Part shown: in pieces, positions 10,133 to 48,720 of the stretch
Layout of the letters: the number at the start of each line of letters is the position of its first letter
Numbering within the stretch: the stretch's first letter is position 1
From: a virus
Lineage: Duplodnaviria > Caudoviricetes
Length of the DNA: 64,000 nt
Strand: one strand, 5' to 3'
IMG/VR virus record: IMGVR_UViG_3300037067_017580
Coordinates: 12,860 to 76,859 of that record
Translations under genes and position numbers: made by a program
Notes under the pieces: model-generated
Databases searched by the model: none
What the model was told of the DNA's origin: nothing
The model's input: only the letters and a program-made list of their open reading frames with translations

Positions 10133-10149
10133 GTTTTCTAAGGAGCAAA

Positions 10150-11085: not shown

Positions 11086-11087
11086 AA

Positions 11088-18702: not shown

Positions 18703-19004
18703 TTTTTAATTCCTTGATTTAAATAGCTATCTGAATCCACAATATAAAAATTAGGATCAGGAATCTTTTTAGCTCTTTTTTCTCTAATTATTTTGCGTGC
18801 CTGTATGCGCTTATTTTTTCTTTTATCTTGTTTTTTAGAAAAAGAACCATTAATAAGCATAGAATTATTTATAATAATATCGTATCCAGAAAAATAAGAA
18901 GACAAACTACAAGACTCGCCAATCAATCCTTCTGCTCTTGCTTGGGTAATTAATTTATTTATTGTTTGAGAATGCCCAACTATTTGTTTCATATTTTTAT
19001 CCAC
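18690..19004 (-). CDS. Hypothetical basic protein
   Basis: Tiling ORF. Confidence 0.5.
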   Translation of the reverse strand: MDKNMKQIVGHSQTINKLITQARAEGLIGESCSLSSYFSGYDIIINNSMLINGSFSKKQDKRKNKRIQARKIIREKRAKKIPDPNFYIVDSDSYLNQGIKKWFG

Positions 19005-19753
19005 CTTTCAGGGACAATATCTGTTTTAGCCCCATCGGCGTACCATTTTCCGGGACAAATAACCACGGCATTTTTATTCTTATTCAGCCATGCCCCCCAC
19101 CAAGAAAATGTAGAATTTGCTATAATATGAGCGTCACACATTGACATTTGTATAACTTCTACATAATCCGGCTTATTTTCTGCAAAGGTAAAGGTATAAT
19201 TACCAAAATTAAAGTTTTCTTTACACCATTTTACGTCATTAGAAAAAACAAGAAATGATTTGATGTTTGTTTTTGAATTTACTATTTCTATTGCCTTTTT
19301 ATAGTATTCCAGAGATAAGCAACCGTGCCGTTTGATATTTACCGGACTAAGATAGTCGCCACGGCGGACATGAAGACTGCAACAATGTTGACTTGGCATT
19401 ATTAATGATCTTTTTACATCTAAATCAAGTCTAAAATCTTCATATATTGAGTTTTTGATGTGTTTAAAATAGTTTTCATTTTGAAAATAACCGTAAATTC
19501 TTTCTCCGTCTTTGATATTAAAAAACTTATCGTTATACATCAGCCCGATGTCTTGAAGTCTATTTTTAGGAGTTTCAAACTCTCCTTTATAATCTCTAAG
19601 TTTAAAACTGGGCAAACTATATGGATGGAGATAATCTCTTGAGTTGCTTAAAATAAGAGCCAATTCTGTGTTGTGACTTTGTGCCAAGGCAAGTCCAGCG
19701 GCATATTGGAACATTTGGTTGCCAAGCCCGCCACAAATATCAACATAAATCAT
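18989..19753 (-). CDS. GT11 alpha-1,2-fucosyltransferase-like protein
   Basis: GGLGNQMFQYA, GYFQNE, HVRRGDY, FSND..WC, ANSTFSWWGAWL. Confidence 0.92.
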   Translation of the reverse strand: MIYVDICGGLGNQMFQYAAGLALAQSHNTELALILSNSRDYLHPYSLPSFKLRDYKGEFETPKNRLQDIGLMYNDKFFNIKDGERIYGYFQNENYFKHIKNSIYEDFRLDLDVKRSLIMPSQHCCSLHVRRGDYLSPVNIKRHGCLSLEYYKKAIEIVNSKTNIKSFLVFSNDVKWCKENFNFGNYTFTFAENKPDYVEVIQMSMCDAHIIANSTFSWWGAWLNKNKNAVVICPGKWYADGAKTDIVPERWIKI

Positions 19754-20223
19754 TTTAATTCTCCAATATTTTTAATAATTTCTACTATTTCTTCTCTAGT
19801 TTCTTTATTTATAAACATTTTATTTTTGTTTTTTTCATAAAACTTATCATAATCGGCCACTCCATATCTTGTTTTTTCAGCCGCGCACCAATCTGCCATC
19901 ATTTCTAGTAAATACTTTTTAGGAATTTTTAATGGAAAAAAATCTCCATTATCAAAATACATTATCCAATATTGCCAATGATGTTTATTGTTTCTTTGGT
20001 GCTCTAACCAGCCATAATTATCTACTTCTTTTGATTCTTCTTTCCTTTTATCTTTGGTATAAAAAGTTTTTATGTAATACAAATATTCTGTCAGACTAAA
20101 TATTTTACTTAAATCATGTAGAATAATATTTATTATTGGAACTTTAAAAATAATTCCATAATGAAAAACATAATATTTATGAATAATTAAATATTTTATA
20201 AAATTAATAACTTTTTTAAACAT
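19750..20223 (-). CDS. DUF5662-like HD-related phage protein
   Basis: HK..V...HDLSK, H...NKHHWQYW, EMMADW. Confidence 0.75.
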   Translation of the reverse strand: MFKKVINFIKYLIIHKYYVFHYGIIFKVPIINIILHDLSKIFSLTEYLYYIKTFYTKDKRKEESKEVDNYGWLEHQRNNKHHWQYWIMYFDNGDFFPLKIPKKYLLEMMADWCAAEKTRYGVADYDKFYEKNKNKMFINKETREEIVEIIKNIGELK

Positions 20224-20450
20224 TCTTTTCCCATTTTAATATTTCTTCATATTTAAGATTTTTATAATTTTTAAACCAACATGTCATTTTTGCTTGCTCT
20301 TATCGAAGGTTTTAACAAATAAAATTCCACTTGATGCCACTTCTTCTATCTTTTTAGCCGCATCTAGTCCATATCTGTTGTGATCTGAAAGCTCTTTAAT
20401 TGCAATAAATAGATTTAATAGTTCCTGTGTTTCTTTTGTCATTGTCTCTC

Positions 20451-21719
20451 CTAAGAAGATAGTTTGTCGGCTAAATCAATCAATATGTCTCGAAAATAAT
20501 TAAATATTTCAAAATTAACTCCATTTTTGTCACATCCCCACGAAAATGGAGAACATGAAAAATAAAATCCACCATCATTGATTAAATTTGTAGTTGGTAA
20601 ATTAAACTCTGTTTTGCAATATTTCTTAAAAAATGGCTGTTTTGTTATATTACCCGAAATAATTGGCCTAGTTTGTATCCCTTTTTCTTCTAATTCTTTT
20701 ACTGTTTCGTTTTTAACTCTTTCGCTTTTACAAACAATAGGAAAACAAAACGCAGAAATATCTAATTTTCTATTAATATATTGTTCATAAAATTTAGGAT
20801 ATATAAATTCGGTAAAGCGATATGGAATACTTTGGCTCATAAACTCATAAAAAACACCATTTCTATCGCTAATTGTCTCGTCTATTATTTTAAGTTGTTC
20901 CTGACACAAAAATGCCGTAATCTCTGTTGGGCGAAGGTTAAATCCGATATCGAAGAAAGTAAAATCTGTTTCATCTGGATCTATTTTAGCACAAGAACAT
21001 AATTTGTCAAGTGTTTTTTTATCTAAATCACGCCCCCAGCCATTAGAACGGACAATTTTTAACATATCATAGAGCTTTTTATCACCGGTCAGAACCGCCC
21101 CGCCCTCAATTGTGCTCATTTGGTGAGAAACATAAAAAGAAAGTGTACCTGCCAATCCAAAAGTACCTAAATATTTGTTATTATATTTCGCGCCAAGGCT
21201 TTCACAGTTATCTTCTAGCAAAATAATATCATTTTCAGAACAAAACTTGGCTATTTGTTCGATATCGTTACACACACCAAGCGCATTTGTAATAAAAAGA
21301 ACCTTGAATCCATATTTATTATAAGCGGCTCTTATGGCACCAACCCCTATATTAAAACTAAACGGCTCACAATCAATCGCAATAGGGTTCAAATCCATTT
21401 GGATAATAGGAGATACATTGGTAGACCAAGTTAGAGAAGAAAAGCCTACGTTGTCACCAGATTTGATTTTTCCAAGGTTTTTTAACGCCTGTAAGAGCGC
21501 AAAATTGGCTGAACCACCACTATTGAACAAAACAGCATGTTTTGAACCAAACTTTTTAGACAAAGCCGCCTCGCATTTTATACATTCTCCGTTCATGCTT
21601 AGACGGTCTGTATTTTTAATAAATTCAGCAAGTTTTTCACGTAAATCAACTTTGCTTTCAAATGTATCATAGACAAGAGGTATCTTATATTTATTTGACA
21701 TTTTTATTTTTTTTACCAT
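20451..21719 (-). CDS. DegT/DnrJ/EryC1/StrS-fold PLP enzyme, ColD/E1-type (His replaces the catalytic Lys)
   Basis: NSGGSAN, LTWST, EDNCES, SFYVSHQMSTIEGG, TRPIISGN. Confidence 0.85.
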   Translation of the reverse strand: MVKKIKMSNKYKIPLVYDTFESKVDLREKLAEFIKNTDRLSMNGECIKCEAALSKKFGSKHAVLFNSGGSANFALLQALKNLGKIKSGDNVGFSSLTWSTNVSPIIQMDLNPIAIDCEPFSFNIGVGAIRAAYNKYGFKVLFITNALGVCNDIEQIAKFCSENDIILLEDNCESLGAKYNNKYLGTFGLAGTLSFYVSHQMSTIEGGAVLTGDKKLYDMLKIVRSNGWGRDLDKKTLDKLCSCAKIDPDETDFTFFDIGFNLRPTEITAFLCQEQLKIIDETISDRNGVFYEFMSQSIPYRFTEFIYPKFYEQYINRKLDISAFCFPIVCKSERVKNETVKELEEKGIQTRPIISGNITKQPFFKKYCKTEFNLPTTNLINDGGFYFSCSPFSWGCDKNGVNFEIFNYFRDILIDLADKLSS

Positions 21720-21726
21720 ATTTGGT

Positions 21727-22698
21727 TTATTTATTTTTCATGCTAACAATAATTTTTTGCAGTGCTTCATCAAGTGAAGTTTCTGGATGATATCCTATTG
21801 TGTTTAATAGTCGCGAAACATCTGGATATCTTCTTTCAATGTCTTTAAAGTTCTCTCCATATGCTTCTTTATAGCCCTTGTAAACGATAGAAGAAGAGCT
21901 ATTTGTTAAAAGCTTTATTTTTTTAGCCAAGTCGTTTATAGATATTTCATTGGTAGATCCAATATTAAAAACTTGTCCATGCGCCTTATTAGAACATGCA
22001 AGAAGATATAGGCTATTTGCGACATCTTTGACATATGTAAAGCAGCGTTTTTGTTCTCCTGTCCCAAAAACAGTAATAGGCTCTCCAGCCAAAGCTTGTT
22101 TAATAAGAGTTGGAACAACCATTCCGTATGATCCTGCTTGACGCTCTCCAATAGTATTAAATAACCGCACAATCGTTACTGGCAATTTCTTTTCATAAAA
22201 ATAGGCTAATCCATGAAATTCGTCAAGTAGTTTACTAGCAGAATAACACCAGCGGCGATAACTAGTGGGGCCAATCATACATATATCGTCTTCTGAAAAA
22301 ACCAAATTAGGATTCGCTCCATATACTTCGCTGGAAGACGCAATAATAACTCTTGCTTTGTTTTTCAATGCCGACCGTAAAATGTTCCTAGTCGCTTCGT
22401 GATTAACTTCAATGGTATTAATAGGTTCATCCATCACCTTTTTAACTCCAACGAGGGCGGCAAGATGATAAATTACTTGAATATTTTCTGCTAATTTTTC
22501 TACTAAACTATAATCAGTAGCGTCACCCTCTATGAGAGTAAATTTGTTGTTAGAAACAAGATGAGAAACATTGTCTCGTTTTCCAGTGGAAAAATTATCT
22601 AATGCCGTAACAGAACAATTATTATTAAGAAGCAATTCACACAGATGACTACCAATAAATCCAGCACCACCAGTAACTAGAACATTAGTTTTTGCCAT
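21727..22698 (-). CDS. NAD-dependent nucleotide-sugar epimerase/dehydratase (SDR)
   Basis: TGGAGFIGSHL, ASSSEVYG, YSASK, RCFTYV. Confidence 0.92.
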   Translation of the reverse strand: MAKTNVLVTGGAGFIGSHLCELLLNNNCSVTALDNFSTGKRDNVSHLVSNNKFTLIEGDATDYSLVEKLAENIQVIYHLAALVGVKKVMDEPINTIEVNHEATRNILRSALKNKARVIIASSSEVYGANPNLVFSEDDICMIGPTSYRRWCYSASKLLDEFHGLAYFYEKKLPVTIVRLFNTIGERQAGSYGMVVPTLIKQALAGEPITVFGTGEQKRCFTYVKDVANSLYLLACSNKAHGQVFNIGSTNEISINDLAKKIKLLTNSSSSIVYKGYKEAYGENFKDIERRYPDVSRLLNTIGYHPETSLDEALQKIIVSMKNK

Positions 22699-22716
22699 TA
22701 TTCTATCCTTTTAAAA

Positions 22717-22956
22717 TTATATTTGTTTGATTTCTTCAATAAGAATATTAAGATCATTTTTCTTTTTTTCTACCAATAAGTCAAATATCCTGTAATACAT
22801 AGTATCTTTTTCATCTATATGATAGATATTATTTTCTATTTCTATATTTAAAAGAGCAAATACAGATCTTTTTTCTTTGATATTAAATATTTGTTTTTCT
22901 AATTCTAGTGCTTCAGCAAATAAAGAATGTATTTTTTCAGCTTTTTCCATATCCAT
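22717..22956 (-). CDS. Hypothetical protein
   Basis: Tiling ORF. Confidence 0.5.
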   Translation of the reverse strand: MDMEKAEKIHSLFAEALELEKQIFNIKEKRSVFALLNIEIENNIYHIDEKDTMYYRIFDLLVEKKKNDLNILIEEIKQI

Positions 22957-23098
22957 TAGAATTCAACCCCAAATTTAATGCCAACCAAATTATTATCTAA
23001 TATTAAGTCTGGCTTAACGCATCTATTTTTACCAATAATACTACAAGAACTACACAATACCAAAAAAATCATCATTATAATAACCAAACAAAATTTAA

Positions 23099-23569
23099 TC
23101 ATTTTTTATCCTTATATAATTTATACCAATTTTCAATTTTATATTTAATAACAGCATTATTATTTTCAAACATTTCTTCAAATTTTTCTGTATTTGGTGA
23201 TTTCCCATCAATTTCCATAAGTGCAAAAATAGATTTCCAAAGTATTTCTAATTTTTCTTCTTTATTTAGTTTATTTTCCCATATAGTATTTATTGATGTG
23301 GATCTTCCTGCAACTATCTCCATCATTTTATCTAGTGCTTCTTGATACCACGGCTGTATTTTTATATAAAAAATACCATTTTGTGAACAAGAACACATAT
23401 TGTACACATCAAAATAATATTTTTTATTGTAATTAAAATAAATAGTTCCATCTTTAAAAACAATAGAAAATTTATCATGTGGCTGAAGAATAAGTTGAGT
23501 ATCTTTGTCATAAACAATATCTTCTCGGTTACTATATTCTTCTATCTGTTGAGGAGTAAATTTTAACAT
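23099..23569 (-). CDS. Hypothetical protein
   Basis: Tiling ORF. Confidence 0.55.
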   Translation of the reverse strand: MLKFTPQQIEEYSNREDIVYDKDTQLILQPHDKFSIVFKDGTIYFNYNKKYYFDVYNMCSCSQNGIFYIKIQPWYQEALDKMMEIVAGRSTSINTIWENKLNKEEKLEILWKSIFALMEIDGKSPNTEKFEEMFENNNAVIKYKIENWYKLYKDKK

Positions 23570-24285
23570 AATTTCCTTATTTCCTCCGCATTTTTATGAA
23601 CATGTAATATTCTATTATCCGAATACAATCCATAACGGGCGAAATCTTTCTCCGGGCAACAATAATTTGACCCCAAAATTCTTGGTTTATGATATACAAA
23701 ATACCAATTTATTTGAGATTCGTCAAACCATTTTGTGTTAATTCCACGCGAATAATCAAATTCTGTTTGTTCTTTAAGAACTTTACACATCTCTAATACT
23801 TTTTCAGTTTCCCCACCCCAAAAACAACCCTGATAATAACAATCTAATTTTATTTCTTGTGGAATATATGCAGTAGAATTAGGATTTTCTTCAACATCTC
23901 CTCTTGGCCCCATAAATTTCTCCCAAGCAGGATGCTTAACCCCTACAAGTCCGGAACTAGTATCAGGCCAAATATTTGCAAGCGAAAAAGAATCGCATAA
24001 TAACATGTCGGCATCTATAAAATAAAGATAGTCATATTGAGAGAAATAGTCATTTTGTGACAGTATGTGCTCAAATTTACAAGCGGAAGATTGCGGCCAC
24101 GGACGATGGTCTACTTTAAAATATTTTACCCATTCAAATTCTTTTGTTTTGTCTTCATTGTTGGTAAAAACAATAACATCTGCGCCACTATAAAAATATT
24201 TCTTAATAGATTCGGCCAAGTTTTGTGCTAATATAAAATATTTGTTTGTGGCAACGGTTACAAAACATACATTATTTTTTGTCAT
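23563..24285 (-). CDS. GT6 glycosyltransferase (ABO/alpha-1,3-Gal(NAc) transferase family)
   Basis: VATNKY, IDADM (DxD), YYQGCFWGG, WFDESQIN. Confidence 0.88.
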   Translation of the reverse strand: MTKNNVCFVTVATNKYFILAQNLAESIKKYFYSGADVIVFTNNEDKTKEFEWVKYFKVDHRPWPQSSACKFEHILSQNDYFSQYDYLYFIDADMLLCDSFSLANIWPDTSSGLVGVKHPAWEKFMGPRGDVEENPNSTAYIPQEIKLDCYYQGCFWGGETEKVLEMCKVLKEQTEFDYSRGINTKWFDESQINWYFVYHKPRILGSNYCCPEKDFARYGLYSDNRILHVHKNAEEIRKLC

Positions 24286-24673
24286 ACTCTACTTCTTTAA
24301 TCTCCTCAAAATCCACTTCTTCTGAATAATACCCATTTGATGTCCCATACCAGCGGATAGTTAAAGAGCCTTTAATTGTGTTTATATTATAGAATGTCCA
24401 TGTATAGCTTTCAGATTCATAATCTCTAGGATGAGAATTATCTTTATTGCTATTTTTATATGCAGTCAATATAGGAGTTTCCAAAATATTTTCAACATCG
24501 CCGCAAATATCTTCTACCGAAACAGACTCGCAACAATCTTGGCAATGCCACATTAAATACTTTTTGCCACACTTAGTATAAAATGTTATTCTTTCGGAGT
24601 CTTTTTCTGCGCCCTCTATTTTTGTAATTATTTTTCCTTCTAGTACAGAAAATCCGTCTTCAAAACTATTCAT
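24272..24673 (-). CDS. Conserved phage protein
   Basis: HCQDCCESV...TWTFY...IRWYGTSNGYYSE pattern familiar from phage genomes. Confidence 0.7.
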   Translation of the reverse strand: MNSFEDGFSVLEGKIITKIEGAEKDSERITFYTKCGKKYLMWHCQDCCESVSVEDICGDVENILETPILTAYKNSNKDNSHPRDYESESYTWTFYNINTIKGSLTIRWYGTSNGYYSEEVDFEEIKEVEYDKK

Positions 24674-25287
24674 TTTATATCCTTATCAATTTTTCCAGTA
24701 GAACGATAACAAGAAGTAATATTTGACATATCCCGGTATAAAGATTGTGTCCCGATACTTGTGCCAGTAGCATAACCCTGTGTAAAACAACCACTCATTC
24801 CGATGTTGTTCGCCTCTGAAAATGCAGTTTCGTTTGCCCCAAGAAAGACAAATTCCCACCCTTGTTCTTTCTTTTCTTTAATTTTATCAACAATTTGTTG
24901 CTTTTTATACTCTTTTGAAGAATTTTCTTGGCCATCTGTGGCAATAACCATAAGAATTTTTTGTTTAACTTTTCCCTTTTTATCCAATTCAATACCCTTT
25001 GAAACTTCGTCAATTGATTTTCCAACAGCATCTAACAACGCAGTACATCCACCCGGACAATATGTTTTATTATCCAACTTATCTATAGTTTTAATATCTT
25101 TTGATTTATTAATAATTTCATAATTGGTATCAAAAAGAGTCAAAGTTAAATTAGCAATATCTTTTAGTTTCTTTTGCTCGTCAATAAAATTATTAAATCC
25201 ACCAATAACATCATCTTTTACACAGTCCATAGAACCAGACTTGTCAATAACACAAATAATTTCTGTAACTTTTTCTTTCTTAGCCAT
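24670..25287 (-). CDS. vWA domain protein
   Basis: MIDAS DKSGSM, TALLDA, IATDGQENSS, FLGAN. Confidence 0.88.
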   Translation of the reverse strand: MAKKEKVTEIICVIDKSGSMDCVKDDVIGGFNNFIDEQKKLKDIANLTLTLFDTNYEIINKSKDIKTIDKLDNKTYCPGGCTALLDAVGKSIDEVSKGIELDKKGKVKQKILMVIATDGQENSSKEYKKQQIVDKIKEKKEQGWEFVFLGANETAFSEANNIGMSGCFTQGYATGTSIGTQSLYRDMSNITSCYRSTGKIDKDIK

Positions 25288-25291
25288 TTTT

Positions 25292-25552
25292 TTATTCTCC
25301 TCTTAAAGAAAAACCAATAAGTTCATTACTATCATTTTCCACTATTTGAATTGTGTCTTTTAAATTAGAAAAACGAATAAGGCCATTTAAAACACCAATA
25401 ATGCCAACCTTGTCGTCTTCTGTCACAATAACAAAATCATCTTCTATAAATTTTTTACCACATGAAACTCTTGAATTAATTAAATTTTCAATAACTTTTT
25501 TGTCTTTTTGAAAAAGATAATTTAAAAAATCACAAATTATTTTTGCATCCAT
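25292..25552 (-). CDS. Hypothetical phage protein
   Basis: Tiling ORF; VGIIGVLNG. Confidence 0.55.
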   Translation of the reverse strand: MDAKIICDFLNYLFQKDKKVIENLINSRVSCGKKFIEDDFVIVTEDDKVGIIGVLNGLIRFSNLKDTIQIVENDSNELIGFSLRGE

Positions 25553-25554
25553 CT

Positions 25555-25938
25555 CTATTCTCCATTTTTAAAATTTTTATAATTTAATAAATTAAATACG
25601 TTATAATGACTATCTTTAAATTTTTTATCAAGTTCTTTCATATAATCATAAAAGAAAATAGACATCTCGTTTTCTTCAATTTTTTCATTTTTAAATAAAA
25701 AGAAATTATCGCAATTTATTTTTATTGTTTCAGAAGTATAAGAACAACATAAATACTTTTTTTTATCAAACATAACAAAATCAAAAATTTGATCATATTT
25801 ACTAATAATTTCTAAGTGTATATGTTGTATATTATTATCTTCTATAAAATATTCACCATCAAAACAATAATTATAATATTTAAAACTTTTTATAATTTTA
25901 TTTAAAAGTAAATAGTTAAAATCAATATCTTTATCCAT
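25555..25938 (-). CDS. Hypothetical protein
   Basis: Tiling ORF. Confidence 0.5.
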   Translation of the reverse strand: MDKDIDFNYLLLNKIIKSFKYYNYCFDGEYFIEDNNIQHIHLEIISKYDQIFDFVMFDKKKYLCCSYTSETIKINCDNFFLFKNEKIEENEMSIFFYDYMKELDKKFKDSHYNVFNLLNYKNFKNGE

Positions 25939-26707
25939 TTTTGTTTTCCATTAAATTTTTAACTGCCCCAATAATATTCTTAATATCTTCAACACTACCA
26001 TATAAACCAGCACACGAAAAAGAATTTATCTCAACCAGACCATATTTAACCTCTTTATCGTCATTTATTTGTGCAATGTCAATAGTCCAACACTTATCTG
26101 GTTCATATCCTTCTGCGATAATTTTCTCTCCTAGTTCCTTAACTTCTGGTGGCATTATAGTATAATCTAGGTTGGTTGTCAAGTCACAATATATTTGTCC
26201 TGAAATTATTTTTTTATCCACTACAACAAGTCGCCATTCCCGCCGAAGATCGACTATATCCATCCCCACGACTAGCTCATATGGATTTTCATAGCAGTCT
26301 ATAATCTCTTGATAGTCGTTTTCTGTTCTGCAAATATGACCCGTGAATACTTTATCTCCGTCATTTGGACGAATAAATATCTCTTTATTTGTATTGTTTT
26401 TTAAATTAATTGCAGAAGTTATCCCCCATTTGTCGGTTAAAAGATACTTAGCCAAATATGGATAATATTCAGAACACTTAAAACTTTTAAAACCACAAAA
26501 AACAGTGTGGAAAGTTTCTGCCTGAACAATTTTTGCCAGTTTTAAAGAACCAAGAAAAACGACATCAGAATCCCAAATATCGTATGGATCAAATGTATCA
26601 AAACTTTCTTTGGAAATTCCCTTGTATTCACAGCCGCACTCAATAATTGCCTGTTTTAGCTCTTCTTTATCACACAACATGTCTTCTTCAACAAGAAATT
26701 TAATCAC
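25931..26707 (-). CDS. ATP-grasp domain protein (DUF4343/R2K-like)
   Basis: IFIRP..GDKVFTG, EWRLVVV, WTIDIA, LVEINSFS.AGLY. Confidence 0.8.
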   Translation of the reverse strand: MIKFLVEEDMLCDKEELKQAIIECGCEYKGISKESFDTFDPYDIWDSDVVFLGSLKLAKIVQAETFHTVFCGFKSFKCSEYYPYLAKYLLTDKWGITSAINLKNNTNKEIFIRPNDGDKVFTGHICRTENDYQEIIDCYENPYELVVGMDIVDLRREWRLVVVDKKIISGQIYCDLTTNLDYTIMPPEVKELGEKIIAEGYEPDKCWTIDIAQINDDKEVKYGLVEINSFSCAGLYGSVEDIKNIIGAVKNLMENKNG

Positions 26708-27457: not shown

Positions 27458-27729
27458 TCATTTTTAATTTCTTCATTAATTTTTTCATTATCAGAACGTT
27501 CTTGAATAGTCAACTTTTCATCGCCCTTTGACCAAACACTATTTCTTTTATTGCCGCACATCGGGCAAGAGCACGATTGCAAATGATCGTAATTATAGCT
27601 AGCCCATTCTTCTATATTTTCTTCTTTAATTCCAAACCCATAACGGCCAATTTTCTTTGCTTTGTTTCTTTTCTTGTGCTTTTGACCACGACGACGCGCT
27701 CTTTTTGCTTTTTCTTCTGGACTCGACAC
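27442..27729 (-). CDS. Basic Cys-containing hypothetical protein
   Basis: CSCPMCGNKR motif. Confidence 0.6.
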   Translation of the reverse strand: MSSPEEKAKRARRRGQKHKKRNKAKKIGRYGFGIKEENIEEWASYNYDHLQSCSCPMCGNKRNSVWSKGDEKLTIQERSDNEKINEEIKNEWKYI

Positions 27730-27743
27730 TTTAAAAACCTTTC

Positions 27744-28550
27744 TTAAAACGGAATAATTGCATCTTTTTCCACAATTGTATCATATAAATAATCTATATT
27801 TTTTTCTAAATGTTCAAAACCAACTTCATCGTTATTAACTATAATATCGGCGATTATACTATCCATTTCTGTTTCCGACTTATGTTGCCCGGTTTGATTA
27901 TTTTTTCCATTAACTCTTACCAAAATTCCCTTATTTTCTTTAATAAATTTGGCTTCGTTCAAAAATCTTACATCATCAATAACAATCAAATTATTTTGCT
28001 TTTTTATATCATTATATTTTTTAAGAGCGATATTAATCCAAATTGCTTCATTATATCCCCGTCCAACATCTGTCCCAATTAGCTGAAGAAGCTTTCTTCC
28101 CTTATCATCTTTTAGTCCGTTCCAGCCAAATTGTTCTACTGCAATTTTCTTAACTGGTTCAGCAAACGAGATAAGACAATCATCATTAGAAAAAAGTTCA
28201 TAAAAATGAAAATTAACGATATCTTCTATAAGTTCTCTTTCTTTTTTCTCTGTAAAGTCACTATTAAGAGTATTACCTACATATTCAAGTTCAATATCTT
28301 TAAAAACTTGTTCCCAGCCATAATATTTCATCAAAAACAATTTTGCCAATGTGGATTTACCAGAACCTGCCTTTCCTATAAATCCAATAAAAATTGGCTT
28401 TGATTTTTTTATAATCTCTTTTGATTTATTAATTAATTTATCAAGTTCTTTGTTATATTCTTTTGGAAACTTATAAAAATCAATTTCTGATTTACAATTT
28501 TTTAAATTATTTATTAATTTATCAAAAATATCTAATTCTTCTTTATTCAT
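27744..28550 (-). CDS. Deoxynucleoside monophosphate kinase
   Basis: GKAGSGKST, SFAEPVK, RKLLQLIGTDVGR, DDVRFLNE, H.SE. Confidence 0.85.
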   Translation of the reverse strand: MNKEELDIFDKLINNLKNCKSEIDFYKFPKEYNKELDKLINKSKEIIKKSKPIFIGFIGKAGSGKSTLAKLFLMKYYGWEQVFKDIELEYVGNTLNSDFTEKKERELIEDIVNFHFYELFSNDDCLISFAEPVKKIAVEQFGWNGLKDDKGRKLLQLIGTDVGRGYNEAIWINIALKKYNDIKKQNNLIVIDDVRFLNEAKFIKENKGILVRVNGKNNQTGQHKSETEMDSIIADIIVNNDEVGFEHLEKNIDYLYDTIVEKDAIIPF

Positions 28551-28569
28551 TTTTTATCCTTAAAAAATT

Positions 28570-28640
28570 TTAACCCGGTTTGAGTCGAACAAACATATTC
28601 TGCGTCAAAGGCAGAAACCTTACCGTTGGGTTACGGGTTA
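28570..28640 (-). tRNA. tRNA-Gln(UUG), CCA not encoded
   Basis: Acceptor TAACCCG/CGGGTTA, anticodon arm TCTGC-CTTTGAC-GCAGA, T arm GTTTG-TTCGACT-CAAAC. Confidence 0.9.
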
Positions 28641-28647
28641 GTTTTGC

Positions 28648-28722
28648 TGGAGCAGATGAAGAGATTCAAACTCTCGTAATTTTGGTTGGAAACCAAACAC
28701 CTAGTCGCTAGGTTACATCTGC
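28648..28722 (-). tRNA. tRNA-Gly(UCC) with encoded CCA and non-canonical A19/U56
   Basis: Acceptor GCAGATG/CATCTGC, U73, anticodon arm TTTGG-TTTCCAA-CCAAA, T-loop TTTGAAT. Confidence 0.88.
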
Positions 28723-28728
28723 AAATTT

Positions 28729-29094
28729 TTACCATACCGAAGAACAAATAAGTCTTTCTGTGTGATCGTCTTTCCTAAGTTGATCAAATAATGAATATGT
28801 TTTTCTATCGTTTTCGTCATCATATGTTATATGCATCATTTCTGGTATAGAAAGCTCTTTTATAATAAAAATTTCATCTTGTTCGCAGTCACAATTACAT
28901 CCTTGTTGTCTTGCAATTTTTTCTGCTGATTTTTCATCTTTTGCAATAACCCAATCAGTTTCCCCACCATCAACAGAATATACCCATGTTTTACGTGGCT
29001 CAAATTTTTCACAATTAATATGGTGAATTGCCCAATCTATTCTACTATTGCCCGTAGGTATTCTAGCCCAGTTCAAACATTCGCAATTAATCAT
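28729..29094 (-). CDS. Hypothetical protein
   Basis: Tiling ORF directly upstream of the tRNAs. Confidence 0.55.
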   Translation of the reverse strand: MINCECLNWARIPTGNSRIDWAIHHINCEKFEPRKTWVYSVDGGETDWVIAKDEKSAEKIARQQGCNCDCEQDEIFIIKELSIPEMMHITYDDENDRKTYSLFDQLRKDDHTERLICSSVW

Positions 29095-29350: not shown

Positions 29351-29353
29351 TTC

Positions 29354-29653: not shown

Positions 29654-29668
29654 TTTGTTCTTTCTATT

Positions 29669-30644: not shown

Positions 30645-30654
30645 TTTTTACTCC

Positions 30655-30972
30655 TTATTTATATAGACAAATTTCATAAACTTCTTTTTGAACATCGTCT
30701 TCTAATTCTAAAATAATTTGATCTAAATTACCTACTATACCATCTGCTACTCCTAAAAATGGCTTATCATAAATTATAACTGACAAAGACTTGTCTCCAC
30801 AAAAGGGACATTTAATTATTATGTCTCTTTTAAACGGCTCCTCTTGTTTTTTAACATAGAGAATTGCAAGTTCTTTTCCACATCCGGCACATTTGATTAT
30901 TGTTTTTTCCATTTCACCAGTTTGCCTTTTTATCATTTGAAAACATTCCGCAATTACTAATTTTGCACACAA
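30655..30972 (-). CDS. Zinc-finger protein
   Basis: CAGCGK and CPFCGD. Confidence 0.6.
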   Translation of the reverse strand: MCAKLVIAECFQMIKRQTGEMEKTIIKCAGCGKELAILYVKKQEEPFKRDIIIKCPFCGDKSLSVIIYDKPFLGVADGIVGNLDQIILELEDDVQKEVYEICLYK

Positions 30973-31153
30973 TAATACCTGTTACAGCAAGAAAAACTAC
31001 TAATGTTGAAAAATATGGGATAAAAGAAACTACAATTAAACAATTTCTGTCTCCTATTGTCCATTCGGTCTGACCACAAACACATTTATTACTAATTTTT
31101 GTTAATATATAGCAACTCGGAATTGACAATAGATAAATAATTAAAAATATCAT
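30914..31153 (-). CDS. Hypothetical membrane protein
   Basis: Hydrophobic segments; AGGAG RBS. Confidence 0.5.
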   Translation of the reverse strand: MIFLIIYLLSIPSCYILTKISNKCVCGQTEWTIGDRNCLIVVSFIPYFSTLVVFLAVTGIIVCKISNCGMFSNDKKANW

Positions 31154-31161
31154 ATTTTCTC

Positions 31162-32067
31162 CTAAATTTTCTCATTAATAACAATTGCCCCACCAAGAGA
31201 AACAACCCTATCTGTAAAAACTTGTTCTTTATCGGTATTAAACATTGAGCCTTTCCAAATTCCATATTTAGCATCAATATTATCCGCAAAATGGAGCAAC
31301 TGCGCAGTAAAGATAGCTGGAACTACAGGAGAACCCCAATCTTTTTGCCCGTGATGTGATAAAATGCAATGTTTAAGCATAAGAACATCTTTTGGTGTTA
31401 AGTCATATTTATTTCTACAAATATAATTTTCAACAGTTTCAGCCCCAATATAAAGATGTTCCAAGGATATCCCAAGTAGTGTATTAGATATTGTCCCATC
31501 TTTTTCAAATGAATATACTTTAATTTTACCAATATCATGTAAAACAGCCGCCGCAAAGAGTAATTCTACATCAATATTATCAGAATAAAGTTCAGAAAAC
31601 TTTTCACATGTCTTTAAAACATAGTAGGTGTGACAAAGCAAGCCACCCCTAAAATCATGGTGAACTGCTTTCGCTCCCGGAGATTCTAAAAATCCAACCT
31701 CATTGTCTTTTATAATATCAAAAACTAGCTTAGAAAAACGCCCCATTTTGCCAATCATGTGTTTAATATATGAATAACATTCTTGTTTATCAAACTTAAT
31801 TGCTGTGGCGGTTTGCAAATGAGAAAATTCTTTTGATTGCTTTTCTGATAAAACTTCATAGTCTTTAACAATTAATTGTGTTTTACCATTGTATGATTCT
31901 TCATTAAATTGTATGGCGCTAATAATATCATTCTCTTTTAGTTCAGCAACGATGTCCCAAATCTTTCCATCTTTTTTAGAACCATCCTCAACGTTGGCAA
32001 TAAAAGAATAATATTGCTTTCCAGATTTTGTTTTTGCTTTTTTAAGAGATTTAACGCAAATAATCAT
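31162..32067 (-). CDS. YhaM/Cbf1-like OB-fold plus HD-domain 3'-5' exoribonuclease
   Basis: N-terminal OB (KTKSGKQY...GKIWD), HH...GGLL.HT, LHDIGK, SHHG...WGSP, DNIDAK. Confidence 0.88.
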   Translation of the reverse strand: MIICVKSLKKAKTKSGKQYYSFIANVEDGSKKDGKIWDIVAELKENDIISAIQFNEESYNGKTQLIVKDYEVLSEKQSKEFSHLQTATAIKFDKQECYSYIKHMIGKMGRFSKLVFDIIKDNEVGFLESPGAKAVHHDFRGGLLCHTYYVLKTCEKFSELYSDNIDVELLFAAAVLHDIGKIKVYSFEKDGTISNTLLGISLEHLYIGAETVENYICRNKYDLTPKDVLMLKHCILSHHGQKDWGSPVVPAIFTAQLLHFADNIDAKYGIWKGSMFNTDKEQVFTDRVVSLGGAIVINEKI

Positions 32068-32242
32068 TATTTTGCACTTTCCTGAACAAGTTTTACAATT
32101 TTATAATATTTATAACTTATGTATCCGTTTTTCATCATACTTCTTGCCTCTTTTCTGGTGACAAAAATATGGGCAAAGTTACAGTGTATCCCTGAAATCT
32201 CTCCATTTTTTTTATAAATTATTGCCCACCAGTGTTTATTTT

Positions 32243-32974
32243 TCATTTTACCTCTTTTCCCTTAAGGTATTCTTTAATCTCTGTCTGCGACTTAATAATT
32301 TCTCTAGCTGATTCAAAATTTAACAAAGAAATATCGTCTACTGGCTCTTTTTTAATCGCAACTAGAACATCTTTTAGTGTTGTTTTGTTATCAGAGATAA
32401 ATTTTTCAATAATTCTTTTCTGTAGATCTGTGGTTGGTTGACTATTTGTAACAACCTCTTCCTCTTCTGAGTCCATGACTTCTTCTGCGGCAACGATATT
32501 AAGATTAAGAGCCTTACGATAAATTCTTGCTTCTGCGCGTGTTACAGCACTAGAAACACTATATTTACCGAAGTCCCATCCAGAATTATAATATGGGCGG
32601 CAATCTGCGGCGTCTGAAAATGTTCTACGTAAATCACCCTGTAAAAATGTAATAGTCATGGTAGCAATAGCTCCAGACATTTTCCCTTCTTCAAATATCG
32701 GGCTAGTTTCTATGTGTTGATCTATAATTGTGCCAATTTTGTCTTGAGCAACACGACGCAATCCATTAATTTTTACATATTCGACACCGTTTTTCGTTGC
32801 TTTTTCATTATCATAGAACAAACACAGATCAGAAGGAGCATCTTTTTGCTCTTCCATTGTTATCTCTTCAAATTTTACCCTTACTTCGTCATCAGACATT
32901 TTTGCAACGTCTTCTTGATTAGCCCCGTGGATTTCTGATAACTCTTTTCTCATCGTTGACGCCCTTTTAGCCAT
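32243..32974 (-). CDS. Possible Rad52/Sak-like single-strand annealing protein
   Basis: YVKINGLRRVA...FSDAADC...AVTRAEARIYRKAL pattern; has its own promoter. Confidence 0.4.
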   Translation of the reverse strand: MAKRASTMRKELSEIHGANQEDVAKMSDDEVRVKFEEITMEEQKDAPSDLCLFYDNEKATKNGVEYVKINGLRRVAQDKIGTIIDQHIETSPIFEEGKMSGAIATMTITFLQGDLRRTFSDAADCRPYYNSGWDFGKYSVSSAVTRAEARIYRKALNLNIVAAEEVMDSEEEEVVTNSQPTTDLQKRIIEKFISDNKTTLKDVLVAIKKEPVDDISLLNFESAREIIKSQTEIKEYLKGKEVK

Positions 32975-33031
32975 TTTTTATTGCCCTTTTTACAAACCCT
33001 AAACAATGTCTTGCCGCAACTTGATATACTT

Positions 33032-33059
33032 ATTATATATTAAAAATCCAATTTGTCAA
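33032..33059 (-). promoter_or_regulatory. Sigma70 promoter TTGACA-N16-TATAAT
   Basis: Perfect hexamers in the intergenic gap upstream of 32974. Confidence 0.85.
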
Positions 33060-33067
33060 GATAAAAA

Positions 33068-33466
33068 TCAACATTTTTCAAAAATTTTTGCTACTTCTTC
33101 TATTTTTGTTGTGGGAGCGAGAGTTATAACCTCTTGAAAACTATCCCTATTCGGTTCTATTGTATCAACGATAAGAATTTTTTTATGGGCTAACCCTTCT
33201 CTGGCGGCATCACAAGAAGAAGAGCAAGAAGAAAAAGAAACCGCTACAGCATTTCTATTTTTCATAGCTGTAGAAATAGAACAATTAACAAACATCGTTC
33301 TAAAAATATCACAAATTGGTTCGTCGCAGGCAATAACAACTGGATTTTTAAGTATTTTTATCAATTCATAGAGCCAAGTTGACCGCTGTGCTTTGTCTTT
33401 TTTAAAATTATCAATATAAAAAATTAGTGTTTTATATTGGTTTTCTGGTATTTTTTCTATACTCAT
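33068..33466 (-). CDS. Hypothetical protein
   Basis: Translationally coupled to gmd. Confidence 0.55.
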   Translation of the reverse strand: MSIEKIPENQYKTLIFYIDNFKKDKAQRSTWLYELIKILKNPVVIACDEPICDIFRTMFVNCSISTAMKNRNAVAVSFSSCSSSCDAAREGLAHKKILIVDTIEPNRDSFQEVITLAPTTKIEEVAKIFEKC

Positions 33467-34452
33467 TTATTTTCCAAATCATAATTTACCATTGTTCTTG
33501 CCAACTTTTCAACATCAAAAAAGCTTGTCCAGCCTAACTTAGTCCTAATTTTAGAAGAATCTCCACAAAGATACGTTAAATCATTTGGCCGCATAAACGT
33601 TTCCGTATTATGACGAATATGCCTATTAAAACAAAAATAATTTTGTCTAAGTTTTTCATTTCCATATTTAAAACAAAGATCTATAAATTCTTTTCCGGTT
33701 GTAGATTTTTCTGTTGAAACAACATAATCTTCAAGAATATCTGATTCTCCAACTAAAATTAAAGCGTTTGCATAATCTCCAGCATAGCCCCAGTCTCTTA
33801 CAAAATTAAGATTTCCAAGCTCTATAAACTCTTTATTACCTTGAATGATATCCCTCATTCCAAGAGTAATTTTACGAGTAAAAAAGTTTTCTCCACGCTT
33901 TTCCGATTCATAATTAAACATAATAACAGAAGCCGCATTCATTCCATAGGAATCTCTATATACACGAACAGCATTATGCCCAACGGTTTTTGCTAACCCA
34001 TATGGACTACGAGGAAGAAGTTGGGAATTCTCATTGATTTTGCCACCATCAATATATCCAAACATCTCCGAACTAGAACATTGAACAAATTTACAGTCTT
34101 TTTTGTGCTTTCTTATTGCTTCAAGACAGTTTACTACTCCAACTCCAGTGACGTTAATTGTCGAAACAGGAGTGACCCATGATTCTTGAACATATGACAT
34201 AGCTGCACAATTAAAAAACACATCTGGGCTATATTTTTTTACAACTTCTTCAATAGATGTTACGTCGCAAAGATCAAATGTCTCAAAAATAAAATTCTTA
34301 TTCTCAAAAAAATGTTTTCTATCTTTAAGTTTTTCACTAATATTTGTGGTGTGACGGCACAGACCAATAACTTTATAATCTTTATCAAGAAGTTTATTTA
34401 CCAAAAAGTATGCCATTTGTCCAGTAAGACCAGTAACTATCGCTGTTTTCAA
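33463..34452 (-). CDS. gmd: GDP-mannose 4,6-dehydratase
   Basis: TGLTGQ, AAMSYVQESW, QCSSSEMFG, PRSPYGLAK, FNYES.KRGENFFTRKIT, LGNL..VRDWG. Confidence 0.92.
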   Translation of the reverse strand: MKTAIVTGLTGQMAYFLVNKLLDKDYKVIGLCRHTTNISEKLKDRKHFFENKNFIFETFDLCDVTSIEEVVKKYSPDVFFNCAAMSYVQESWVTPVSTINVTGVGVVNCLEAIRKHKKDCKFVQCSSSEMFGYIDGGKINENSQLLPRSPYGLAKTVGHNAVRVYRDSYGMNAASVIMFNYESEKRGENFFTRKITLGMRDIIQGNKEFIELGNLNFVRDWGYAGDYANALILVGESDILEDYVVSTEKSTTGKEFIDLCFKYGNEKLRQNYFCFNRHIRHNTETFMRPNDLTYLCGDSSKIRTKLGWTSFFDVEKLARTMVNYDLENK

Positions 34453-35193
34453 TTATTTTCTCCTTAAACTTTCTAACATCTTATAATTATTTTGAACATC
34501 TTTATGTTTAGGCCCAGAAGTAGAGGTCTCTGGATGATTAAAATGCCAGAGTGGGCCAGAAATTCTTTCAATCTGATATCCATTTTGTTTCGCCCTTAAA
34601 ACTCTTTCATTATCTTCAAATCCCCAGCCTCTAAATTCTTCGTTCTCTAATCCTATCTTTTCATATCTTGTGCGGTCAAAAACAAAGCAACCACCAACAG
34701 AATCACTTATTGCGCAAGTATAGAATAAACTATTAAAATCTCCATTTTTTATCGCTGCTTCGTCAAAAATATCTACATTTTGAAATCTTCCATCATATGG
34801 AAAACAAAACATACAATCTTCGTTATCTCCTATTTTTTTAACAGCCTGATTATAGCCGAAAGGAAAAGTTAAAACATCTACGTCTTGGTTGACAATAATA
34901 TCTGTTTCTGCCATTTTTGTCATCAGATTAAGAATTTTAGTTCTATGAAAACAATCTTCCATTGGTTCAAATATATATCTAGCGCCGATTTGTTCTACTG
35001 TATCTTTATTTTGTGATTCTTTGTCGTGTTCACACACAATTATGTTAGAGCAAATATTTTTAAATATAAAATCTGTAACATGTACTAAATTTCTTAATCT
35101 TTCTTCGCAGTCTTTTCTAAATGGAATAATAAAAGTAGCATTATTGATCATCGTTAAACACCATATACCGGAACATTTTGATTTTTCCCACAA
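34453..35193 (-). CDS. GT7/GT2-like beta-galactosyltransferase-family protein
   Basis: FIIPFR, FHRTKILN, NQDVD, GGCF, ENEEFRGWGFEDNE. Confidence 0.8.
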   Translation of the reverse strand: MWEKSKCSGIWCLTMINNATFIIPFRKDCEERLRNLVHVTDFIFKNICSNIIVCEHDKESQNKDTVEQIGARYIFEPMEDCFHRTKILNLMTKMAETDIIVNQDVDVLTFPFGYNQAVKKIGDNEDCMFCFPYDGRFQNVDIFDEAAIKNGDFNSLFYTCAISDSVGGCFVFDRTRYEKIGLENEEFRGWGFEDNERVLRAKQNGYQIERISGPLWHFNHPETSTSGPKHKDVQNNYKMLESLRRK

Positions 35194-48719: not shown

Positions 48720-48720
48720 A

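What the first reader, a model, noticed from the sequence alone, without database searches (positions are those of the whole stretch)
18989..35193. Phage encodes the enzyme families that build ABO/H-type glycans: GT7-like, GT11, GT6 plus Gmd and Fcl
Seen: GT7-like (GWGFED), GT11 (HVRRGDY), GT6 (DAD, YYQGCFWGG, WFDESQIN), gmd and fcl-like genes, dispersed rather than in one operon. Established: beta-Gal transfer, then alpha-1,2-fucosylation (GT11), then alpha-1,3-Gal/GalNAc transfer (GT6) gives H then A/B antigens; Gmd plus Fcl supply GDP-fucose; E. coli O86 uses GT11 plus GT6 for a B-like O-antigen. The GT6 has Q/C at the ABO specificity positions (L/G in A, M/A in B) and a DxD rather than the NxN of many bacterial GT6. 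Inference: a self-sufficient pathway making a blood-group-like glycan on the virion, host surface or DNA.
Basis: partly seen in the sequence, partly recalled or inferred. Interest (0 to 1): 0.85.

Follow-up and report, generated by a model that had tools for sequence, protein, structure and literature searches.

The report
Phage blood-group-like glycan gene set
An uncultured large phage carries genes for sugar-adding enzymes related to the human H and ABO blood-group enzymes, plus enzymes that make the fucose-type sugar donor. The same gene set is already annotated in cyanophage genomes published since 2005, so this is a new member of a known kind, and it probably uses colitose (3-deoxy-fucose) as well as or instead of fucose.

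Summary
The motifs and four of the five families are real: GT11 (18989-19753), GT6 (23563-24285), Gmd (33463-34452) and a GT-A enzyme with a Glyco_transf_7C domain (34453-35193). The only candidate for the "fcl-like" gene inside the interval (21727-22698) is not Fcl. It is closest to UDP-glucuronate decarboxylase (UXS). A true Fcl/ColC-like gene lies outside the interval at 11052-12125.

Gmd, ColD and the Fcl-like enzyme together form the GDP-colitose pathway.

The enzymes co-occur strongly. Among 80 viral contigs carrying GT6, 68 have GT11 within 10 kb, usually in the order Gmd>Fcl>[ColD]>GT11>GT6>UXS-like. P-SSM2 and ACG-2014f carry the set as one gene run. Distant relatives of this phage keep GT11-GT6-Gmd beside the same replication genes.

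The pathway is not self-sufficient on this contig: there is no GDP-mannose or UDP-glucuronate supply, no flippase and no polymerase. The target of the glycan is unknown.

This scan has noted the same module on at least seven other genomes. Verdict: observation partly confirmed, interpretation partly supported, new member of a known kind.

The parts
11052..12125 (+). Fcl/ColC-like GDP-4-keto-6-deoxyhexose epimerase/reductase (357 aa).
   Evidence: NCBIfam GDP-L-fucose synthase 238 bits; this is below the 500 cut-off, but the next family scores 60. All 18 solved-structure matches listed at E <= 1e-10 are GDP-fucose synthases, E. coli GMER at 165 bits. 34.5% identical to ACG-2014f gp224, which sits between Gmd and ColD.
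18989..19753 (-). GT11 alpha-1,2-fucosyl/colitosyl-transferase type (254 aa)
   Evidence: Pfam PF01531 109 bits. HVRRGDY and STFSWWGAWL motifs present. 35-37% identical to GT11 of cyanophages S-SCSM1, Bellamy and ACG-2014f.
19750..20223 (-). DUF5662 protein; its stop overlaps the GT11 start by 4 nt. Role unknown.
   Evidence: Pfam PF18907 98 bits; phrog_20637, function unknown.
20451..21719 (-). ColD-type PMP-dependent nucleotide-sugar 3-dehydratase (422 aa)
   Evidence: Best solved relative is E. coli O55 ColD (2gms) at 187 bits, against E1 at 125 and aminotransferases at 81 or less. The His in SFYVSHQ aligns with ColD His188, which is the residue mutated in 3b8x and 2r0t. The same His is present in ACG-2014f gp225 and in two LR756502 copies.
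21727..22698 (-).
   Evidence: Human UDP-glucuronate decarboxylase 182 bits, next family 133. The S-S-E, YxxxK and Arg equivalents are kept. The Fcl model scores only 50 bits. A homologue lies downstream of GT6 in 62 of 80 viral loci.
22717..22956 (-). 79-aa ORF between the 156-aa ORF and the UXS-like gene, function unknown
   Evidence: ORF list; not searched.
23099..23569 (-). 156-aa ORF that overlaps the GT6 stop, function unknown
   Evidence: No Pfam or PHROG match.
23563..24285 (-). GT6, minimal DXD-type catalytic domain (240 aa), Q/C + WFDES subtype
   Evidence: Pfam PF03414 79 bits. Aligns to BoGT6a and human GTA/GTB with DAD=DVD, Q/C at positions 266/268, and the catalytic Glu of WFDES matching WHDES. 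28-38% identical to phage GT6.
33463..34452 (-). GDP-mannose 4,6-dehydratase (329 aa)
   Evidence: Pfam PF16363 285 bits. NCBIfam gmd 255 bits, the best family but below the 415 cut-off. All 11 solved-structure matches at E <= 1e-30 are GMDs, best 217 bits.
34453..35193 (-). GT-A glycosyltransferase with a Glyco_transf_7C module. The likely start is the ATG at 35151. It directly abuts Gmd.
   Evidence: Pfam PF02709 40 bits. DVD and GWGFED are conserved in 8 aligned sequences. AF2 model pLDDT 81.6. Nearest folds are K4CP chondroitin polymerase, ppGalNAc-T and SpsA.
37880..42758 (-). Four consecutive GT4-type (GT-B) glycosyltransferase genes. They may belong to the same glycan programme.
   Evidence: Pfam Glycos_transf_1 at 27-65 bits; phrog_2170 for three of the four (the 303-aa gene was not put to PHROGs).
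46119..47204 (-). Fifth GT4-type glycosyltransferase, next to the DnaE genes
   Evidence: Pfam Glyco_trans_1_4 46 bits. A homologue lies near GT11-GT6 in L050 and L059.

Best explanation
The phage carries a glycan-building module of a kind common in large aquatic phages.

Proposed mechanism:
1. Gmd converts host GDP-mannose to GDP-4-keto-6-deoxymannose.
2. The ColD-type enzyme removes the 3-OH.
3. The Fcl/ColC-like enzyme epimerises and reduces the product. The output is GDP-L-colitose, and GDP-L-fucose when ColD is bypassed.
4. The GT11 enzyme puts this sugar alpha-1,2 on a galactose-type residue. That residue is possibly laid down by the GT7C-type GT-A enzyme.
5. The DXD-type GT6 then adds an alpha-1,3 sugar, giving a branched H/A/B-like cap. 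With Q/C at the specificity positions, the sugar is more likely a plain hexose than GalNAc.
6. The UXS-like SDR supplies a further UDP-sugar.

The enzymes are soluble and act in the infected cell's cytoplasm. The most likely target is a host envelope glycan precursor, which would change the cell surface during infection.

What is shown: the family assignments, the catalytic residues and the gene linkage. What is inferred: donors, acceptors, order of action and target.
For: - Families and catalytic residues.
- ColD signature: His at the ColD His188 position, and ColD is the best structural relative by 60 bits.
- One gene run in ACG-2014f holds Gmd, Fcl-like, ColD, GT11, GT6 and UXS-like counterparts of the window's genes at 28-35% identity.
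- Fcl-like and ColD are adjacent in megaphage LR756502, with GT6 and GT11 within 13 kb.
- In 80 IMG/VR GT6 loci, GT11 is present in 68, UXS-like in 62, Fcl-like in 37, Gmd in 34 and ColD in 11, on the same strand in nearly all and in a fixed order.
- Distant relatives with the same RecA-DnaB-primase-nuclease-DnaE order keep GT11, GT6 (Q/C, WFDES) and Gmd.
- GT7C-type genes lie next to GT11 in S-SCSM1, S-T4, two marine virus records (AG-345-E08, AG-341-P01), L091 and L092.
- The GT6 has His and Ala at the two acceptor positions that are Gln and Trp in the enzyme that rejects fucosylated acceptors.
- PaGT6, of the same DXD clade, needs a fucosylated acceptor.
- The E. coli O55 alpha-1,2-colitosyltransferase WbgN naturally uses GDP-colitose and also tolerates GDP-fucose (PMC12723683).
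Against: - No activity has been tested for any phage member.
- Here the genes lie in three places (11 kb, 19-24 kb, 33-35 kb) and on two strands, so co-expression is not shown.
- The Fcl-like partners of ColD do not form one clade, so calling this one ColC is not secured.
- The GT7C-type enzyme's nearest folds include both inverting and retaining enzymes.
- The GT6 has Phe where all characterised GT6 have His (WHDES), so its donor could be unusual.
- The contig has no lipid-carrier glycosyltransferase, flippase, polymerase or ligase, so the envelope target rests on analogy with the 'LPS gene' reading of P-SSM2 (PMC1079782).
- The contig is only about 45% of the genome, and the host is unknown.
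Confidence: 0.6

Rival explanations
1. The same enzymes act on the phage's own structural proteins, so the glycan decorates the capsid, tail or fibres rather than the host surface.
For: All the glycosyltransferases lack transmembrane segments, and the contig has no flippase, polymerase or lipid-carrier enzyme. The phage-type GT6 lacks the C-terminal membrane-binding domain that the O-antigen GT6 enzymes carry (PMC3516806). In ACG-2014f and P-SSM2 the cluster lies within a few kb (P-SSM2: about 12 kb) of tail-fibre genes.
Against: No structural genes lie near the module in this contig; its neighbours are replication and nucleotide-metabolism genes. No protein-directed transferase was identified. 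No glycosylated cyanophage virion is reported in the papers read here.
Confidence: 0.22
2. The module makes GDP-fucose and a true H then A/B antigen, and the ColD-type enzyme serves another sugar pathway, for example with the adjacent UXS-like SDR.
For: Most viral cassettes (about 26 of 37 with Fcl-like) lack ColD. The Fcl-like protein's best matches are all GDP-fucose synthases. ColD lies next to the UXS-like SDR here.
Against: Within the set compared, ColD sits between the Fcl-like gene and GT11 in 10 of the 11 IMG/VR loci that have it, and in ACG-2014f. It is also directly next to the Fcl-like gene in LR756502. It matches the GDP-sugar enzyme ColD 60 bits better than the CDP-sugar enzyme E1.
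Confidence: 0.12
3. The sugars go onto phage DNA as a hypermodification that protects against restriction.
For: The glycosyltransferases are interspersed with replication and nucleotide-metabolism genes: a dNMP kinase-like gene at 27744-28550, an HD-domain gene at 31162-32067, SSB and DnaE. One GT4 gives a weak match to 'GT4 in conflict systems'.
Against: The contig has no thymidylate-synthase-type hydroxymethylase. To my knowledge no GT6 or GT11 enzyme is known to act on DNA. In cyanophages the same cassette sits among photosynthesis and 'LPS' genes.
Confidence: 0.04

Closest known systems
Prochlorococcus phage P-SSM2 'LPS' gene cluster (PSSM2_257 to _271; PMC1079782)
   Same: It has GDP-mannose dehydratase, Fcl-like and other sugar SDRs, GT11 and GT6, with a nucleotide-sugar epimerase two genes after GT6 in the place that the UXS-like SDR holds in the IMG/VR cassettes. 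All are annotated and co-directional. The GT6 is of the same minimal DXD clade at 28% identity.
   Different: It is one compact gene run in a T4-like cyanomyovirus, and no ColD-type gene is annotated in that run. The window's phage has a split DnaE replication module, scatters the genes over 24 kb, has a ColD-type gene, and has a GT7C-type GT-A in place of GT25.
Synechococcus phage ACG-2014f gene run gp223-gp233 (NC_026927)
   Same: It has Gmd, Fcl-like, ColD-type (with His), GT11, GT6 with the Q/C specificity pair, and a UXS-like SDR. Six of the window's enzymes have counterparts at 28-35% identity.
   Different: The genes are contiguous and ordered. The GT6 keeps WHDES. The ColD-type gene is annotated only as 'aminotransferase' or 'hypothetical protein'. 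The host is a cyanobacterium.
E. coli O55 GDP-colitose pathway (Gmd, ColD/WbdK, ColC) with the alpha-1,2-colitosyltransferase WbgN
   Same: The same three-enzyme logic applies. The window's ColD-type protein matches the O55 ColD structure best and shares its catalytic His. WbgN naturally uses GDP-colitose and also tolerates GDP-fucose (PMC12723683).
   Different: The bacterial system sits in an O-antigen cluster with ManB/ManC, a flippase and a polymerase, and none of these is on this contig. O55 has no GT6 step. That WbgN belongs to CAZy family GT11 rests on my memory and was not checked here.
E. coli O86 and Bacteroides ovatus blood-group B/A-like O-antigen enzymes (WbnK GT11, WbnI / BoGT6a GT6)
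   Same: A GT11 step followed by a GT6 step on a galactoside. The GT6 acceptor residues His122, Trp189 and Glu192 are conserved in the window's enzyme.
   Different: Bacterial GT6 enzymes have NXN and are metal-independent, and they carry a membrane-binding tail (PMC3516806). The phage enzyme has DAD, has no tail, and has Q/C and Phe at donor-side positions.

Membership tests
CAZy GT6 (ABO-type retaining alpha-1,3-Gal/GalNAc transferases) | Sequence match to the family model over its curated cut-off | tested here: met
   PF03414 79.4 bits against a cut-off of 25. The NCBIfam Gltr_6 subfamily model scores 137 bits, below its 250 cut-off.
CAZy GT6 (ABO-type retaining alpha-1,3-Gal/GalNAc transferases) | DXD metal site and the catalytic Glu of the W-H-D-E-S segment | tested here: met
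   DAD aligns with DVD of human GTA/GTB, and the Glu of WFDES aligns with the Glu of WHDES. The His of that segment is Phe here.
CAZy GT6 (ABO-type retaining alpha-1,3-Gal/GalNAc transferases) | A-type (L/G) or B-type (M/A) residues at positions 266/268 | tested here: not met
   Q and C. The same pair occurs in ACG-2014f, Bellamy and 6 of 80 IMG/VR loci; the majority have A/G. The donor therefore cannot be read from known rules.
CAZy GT6 (ABO-type retaining alpha-1,3-Gal/GalNAc transferases) | Residues that admit a 2'-fucosylated acceptor (His at A1, small residue at A2) | tested here: met
   HPAW aligns with HPGF of BoGT6a; alpha3GT has Gln and Trp at those positions. Position A7 aligns with His, which is ambiguous.
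CAZy GT11 (alpha-1,2-fucosyltransferases) | Family model over cut-off, plus the HxRRGD and SxFSWW motifs | tested here: met
   PF01531 109 bits against 23.9. HVRRGDY and STFSWWGAWL are in the translation. The motif definitions are from my memory of the family literature.
CAZy GT11 (alpha-1,2-fucosyltransferases) | Use of GDP-fucose rather than GDP-colitose | not testable with these tools
   WbgN accepts both donors (PMC12723683). Sequence does not separate them.
CAZy GT7 (beta-1,4-Gal/GalNAc transferases) | Both halves of the beta4GalT catalytic domain (Glyco_transf_7N and 7C) | tested here: not met
   Only Glyco_transf_7C matches (40 bits, residues 157-220). The best sequence match to a solved GT7, beta4GalT7, is 25.6 bits.
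CAZy GT7 (beta-1,4-Gal/GalNAc transferases) | Nearest solved fold is a GT7 enzyme | tested here: inconclusive
   Foldseek's top hits are K4CP (GT2), ppGalNAc-T (GT27), chondroitin synthase and SpsA, with TM 0.6-0.7 and 12-17% identity. It is a GT-A fold of the GT2/7/27 group.
GDP-mannose 4,6-dehydratase (Gmd) | Equivalog-level match and GMD as nearest solved relatives | tested here: met
   PF16363 285 bits over the full length. TIGR01472 scores 255 bits, the best family but below its 415 cut-off. All 11 solved-structure matches at E <= 1e-30 are GMDs.
GDP-L-fucose synthase (Fcl), as claimed inside 18989-35193 | Best match to the Fcl model | tested here: not met
   21727-22698 scores 50 bits against NF047922 (cut-off 500) and ranks 15th among its family matches; UXS1 is its best solved relative.
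GDP-L-fucose synthase / GDP-L-colitose synthase (Fcl/ColC), 11052-12125 | Best match to Fcl, and a partner of Gmd (and ColD) in relatives | tested here: inconclusive
   238 bits, the best family but below 500. All 18 solved matches listed at E <= 1e-10 are Fcl. Homologues lie between Gmd and ColD in ACG-2014f and in IMG/VR loci. A tree does not separate ColD partners from the rest.
ColD (GDP-4-keto-6-deoxymannose 3-dehydratase) | His in place of the Schiff-base Lys, and ColD as the nearest relative | tested here: met
   His aligns with ColD His188. ColD scores 187 bits, E1 125 and aminotransferases 81 or less.
Self-contained O-antigen-type assembly system (as in E. coli O86/O55) | Own GDP-mannose supply, initiating lipid-carrier transferase, flippase and polymerase or ligase | tested here: not met
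   The 76.9-kb contig has no PF00483 match, no PF03721 match, and no ORF with more than 3 predicted membrane helices. The contig is about 45% of the genome, so absence is provisional.

The most novel reading that the evidence does not exclude
The phage makes GDP-colitose, which would be a virus-encoded 3,6-dideoxyhexose pathway. I found no paper describing one. Its GT6 subtype (Q/C plus WFDES), which is conserved in a DnaE-type phage lineage, would have a donor specificity not seen in any characterised GT6. The resulting colitose-capped, blood-group-like glycan would be placed on virion proteins rather than on the host envelope.
Probability: 0.12. Interest if true: 0.6.

Novelty: new member of a known kind. 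Interest (0 to 1): 0.3.

Why it matters
Cassettes holding GT6, GT11 and GDP-fucose synthesis genes are widespread in aquatic phages: at least 585 viral contig stretches encode a GT6. They have been annotated since 2005, yet no product or target has been shown.

This window adds three things:
- The module exists outside T4-like cyanophages, in a lineage with a DnaE-type replication module, and has been kept there over deep divergence.
- A subset of these cassettes carries a ColD-type enzyme that public records label 'aminotransferase' or 'hypothetical'. Some phages therefore probably cap with colitose rather than fucose.
- Viral GT6 enzymes fall into at least three classes at the donor-specificity positions (A/G, A/A, Q/C).

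These points give concrete enzymes to assay, but they do not change the picture of what such modules are.

Tried and rejected
- Megablast of the whole interval against phage records found no match.
- A single-protein scan of IMG/VR with the GT6 found no confirmed relative. A five-sequence alignment was needed.
- The word-based protein search found only two GT6 relatives.
- I tested whether the Q/C type of GT6 goes with the UXS-like SDR, which would hint at a xylose donor. It does not: UXS-like follows A/G-type GT6 in 56 of 65 loci and none of the six Q/C loci.
- I tested whether the Fcl-like partners of ColD form a distinct ColC clade. They do not, and the window's protein sits on a very long branch.
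- The promoter and terminator scan was uninformative: 97 sites against 93 expected.
- Searches of the contig for a hydroxymethylase (PF00303), ManC (PF00483) and Ugd (PF03721) all found nothing.
- Brew et al. 2010 (PMC2988317) is not held.
- No held paper that mentions colitose describes a phage-encoded pathway for it.
- The helicase and DnaE searches gave no close cultured relative, so the host remains unknown.

Full report
**Setting.** The window is the last 64 kb of a 76.9-kb IMG/VR viral contig that CheckV estimates at about 45% complete. GC content is about 31% and nearly all genes from 15 kb onward lie on the minus strand. The replication genes are a split DnaE-type polymerase, a DnaB helicase, a primase, RecA and SSB. 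The nearest cultured relatives are only 27-35% identical. The phage is therefore not a T4-like cyanomyovirus, and its host is unknown.

**Observation.** Every quoted motif is in the translations. Pfam places four genes well above the curated cut-offs:
- 18989-19753 in GT11 (109 bits).
- 23563-24285 in GT6 (79 bits).
- 33463-34452 in GDP_Man_Dehyd (285 bits).
- 34453-35193 has a Glyco_transf_7C domain (40 bits).

All 11 solved structures that match the Gmd at E <= 1e-30 are GDP-mannose dehydratases. The GT6 aligns with BoGT6a and human GTA/GTB so that DAD matches DVD/NAN, Q and C fall at positions 266 and 268, and WFDES matches WHDES. These parts of the observation hold.

**Corrections.**
- The only other SDR inside the interval (21727-22698) is not Fcl-like. 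It scores 50 bits on the NCBIfam Fcl model, whose cut-off is 500. Its best solved relative is human UDP-glucuronate decarboxylase at 182 bits, with the Ser-Ser-Glu, YxxxK and Arg equivalents conserved.
- A search of the whole contig with the Fcl model found the real candidate at 11052-12125 on the + strand. It scores 238 bits, and all 18 solved-structure matches listed at E <= 1e-10 are GDP-fucose synthases.
Its best solved relative is E. coli O55 ColD (187 bits), against 125 bits for the CDP-sugar dehydrase E1 and 81 or less for aminotransferases. Its His in SFYVSHQ aligns with ColD His188, the position mutated in entries 3b8x and 2r0t. From established knowledge of the pathway (my own recollection of the ColD/ColC work), Gmd, ColD and the Fcl homologue ColC make GDP-L-colitose.
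- The genes are less dispersed than stated. GT6, two small ORFs, the UXS-like gene, ColD, DUF5662 and GT11 form a tight co-directional block from 24285 to 18989. The GT7C-type gene abuts Gmd.

**Do the enzymes belong together?**
- In Synechococcus phage ACG-2014f, one gene run holds counterparts of six of the window's enzymes in the order Gmd, Fcl-like, ColD-type, GT11, (methyltransferase), GT6..., UXS-like. Identities are 28-35%. Its ColD-type protein has the same His.
- P-SSM2, published in 2005, has GDP-mannose dehydratase, sugar SDRs, GT11, GT6 and GT25 annotated in one run. Its authors read these as LPS genes that might alter the host surface (PMC1079782).
- Phage Bellamy has an SDR, GT11 and GT6 adjacent.
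- The 642-kb phage LR756502 has Fcl-like next to ColD, with GT6, a second ColD-like gene and GT11 within 13 kb.
- An alignment-based scan of IMG/VR found at least 585 viral stretches encoding GT6. In the best 80 loci, GT11 lies within 10 kb in 68, a UXS-like SDR in 62, Fcl-like in 37, Gmd in 34 and ColD in 11. These are lower bounds because many contigs end nearby. Almost all are on one strand, and the modal order is Gmd>Fcl>[ColD]>GT11>GT6>UXS-like.
- Four loci (L050, L052, L055, L059) are distant relatives of the window's phage. They keep GT11, GT6 and Gmd directly beside RecA, DnaB, primase, nuclease and DnaE in the window's order, at 23-36% identity.
- GT7C-type genes are absent from the GT6 neighbourhoods. 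They do lie next to GT11 in S-SCSM1, S-T4, two marine virus records (AG-345-E08, AG-341-P01), L091 and L092.

**What the sequences say about chemistry.**
- The GT6 belongs to the minimal DXD clade described for cyanophage PSSM-2 and Parachlamydia. The Parachlamydia member transfers GalNAc only to 2'-fucosylated acceptors and needs metal (PMC3516806).
- The window's enzyme has His and Ala where the fucosyl-acceptor enzymes have His and Gly/Ser, and where alpha3GT has Gln and Trp. This favours a 2'-substituted galactose acceptor.
- Viral GT6 enzymes fall into three classes at positions 266/268: A/G (65 of 80), A/A (9) and Q/C (6). Four of the Q/C loci share the window's unusual WFDES, and ACG-2014f and Bellamy are also Q/C. 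A Cys at 268 is bulkier than Gly or Ala. I infer a hexose donor rather than GalNAc, but this is untested.
- The GT11 donor cannot be read from sequence. The E. coli O55 enzyme WbgN naturally uses GDP-colitose and also tolerates GDP-fucose (PMC12723683).
- A tree of Fcl-like proteins does not separate those paired with ColD, so whether the window's enzyme is Fcl, ColC or both remains open.
- The GT7C-type enzyme was modelled at pLDDT 81.6. It is a GT-A fold nearest to K4CP chondroitin polymerase, ppGalNAc-transferases and SpsA. It is thus related to the GT2/GT7/GT27 group but is not a demonstrable beta-galactosyltransferase.

**Self-sufficiency and target.**
- The contig has no NTP-transferase (ManC), no UDP-glucose dehydrogenase and no thymidylate-synthase-type hydroxymethylase. 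No ORF has more than three predicted membrane helices, and none of the glycosyltransferases has a clear membrane segment.
- The module therefore depends on host GDP-mannose and UDP-sugars, at least as far as this half-genome shows.
- It has no export or polymerisation machinery of its own.
- I rank a host envelope glycan precursor as the most likely acceptor, following the standing reading for cyanophages (PMC1079782, PMC9602691). Virion proteins come second, because the enzymes are soluble and the phage GT6 lacks the membrane-binding tail. DNA is a distant third.

**Comparison and novelty.**
- The closest known systems are the P-SSM2 and ACG-2014f clusters, the E. coli O55 colitose pathway, and the O86 / B. 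ovatus GT11-GT6 pairs.
- S-SCSM1's Gmd, Fcl and alpha-1,2-fucosyltransferase are described in print as cell-wall modification genes (PMC9602691).
- I found no paper linking colitose to phage-encoded synthesis. In public records the ColD-type genes are labelled 'aminotransferase' or 'hypothetical protein'.
- Earlier notes of this scan report the same GT11-GT6 module on at least seven other genomes, and they note the ColD His in this genome. I confirmed the ColD His, the Fcl position and the P-SSM2 gene set independently.
- The finding is real, partly mis-assigned, and a new member of a known kind.

Noticed in passing
window 37880-42758 and 46119-47204: Five GT4-type (GT-B) glycosyltransferase genes are interleaved with SSB and the DnaE genes, so the window holds at least eight glycosyltransferases. 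One gives a weak match to 'GT4 in conflict systems'. A homologue lies near GT11-GT6 in L050 and L059.
   Followed up: partly
window 47214-51069: The DnaE-type polymerase is split into two ORFs (782 and 501 aa). Bacillus phage vB_BceM_WH1 is annotated with a similar two-gene DnaE.
   Followed up: no
window 28570-28722: tRNA-Gln(ttg) and tRNA-Gly(tcc) lie side by side just downstream of the dNMP-kinase-like gene.
   Followed up: no
window 24272-26707: Directly upstream of the GT6 block lie a DUF7448 protein, a VWA-like protein (phrog_7371, 179 bits) and an R2K-clade ATP-grasp enzyme (phrog_7313). All are phage families of unknown function.
   Followed up: no
window 16303-16815 and 10126-11085: An ECF-type sigma factor and a RuvB-like AAA ATPase. 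The latter's end overlaps the start of the Fcl-like gene.
   Followed up: no
L007 (LR756502) 20001-21101 and 27721-28836: The 642-kb phage has two ColD-like genes, both with His at the catalytic position. The second has an E1-like SFYPAHH motif. This suggests two different 3-deoxy-sugar routes in one phage.
   Followed up: partly
L012 2856-4258 and 13010-13801: A cyanophage cassette (psbA lies next to it) has a PfkB-like kinase fragment and an NTP-transferase upstream of Gmd, and a GT25 after the UXS-like gene. Some cassettes may therefore bring their own sugar-1-phosphate activation.
   Followed up: no
L060: One GT6 + GT11 + UXS-like locus comes from a contig labelled as a giant-virus MAG (GVMAG). 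This may be a mis-binned phage or a eukaryotic-virus copy of the module.
   Followed up: no
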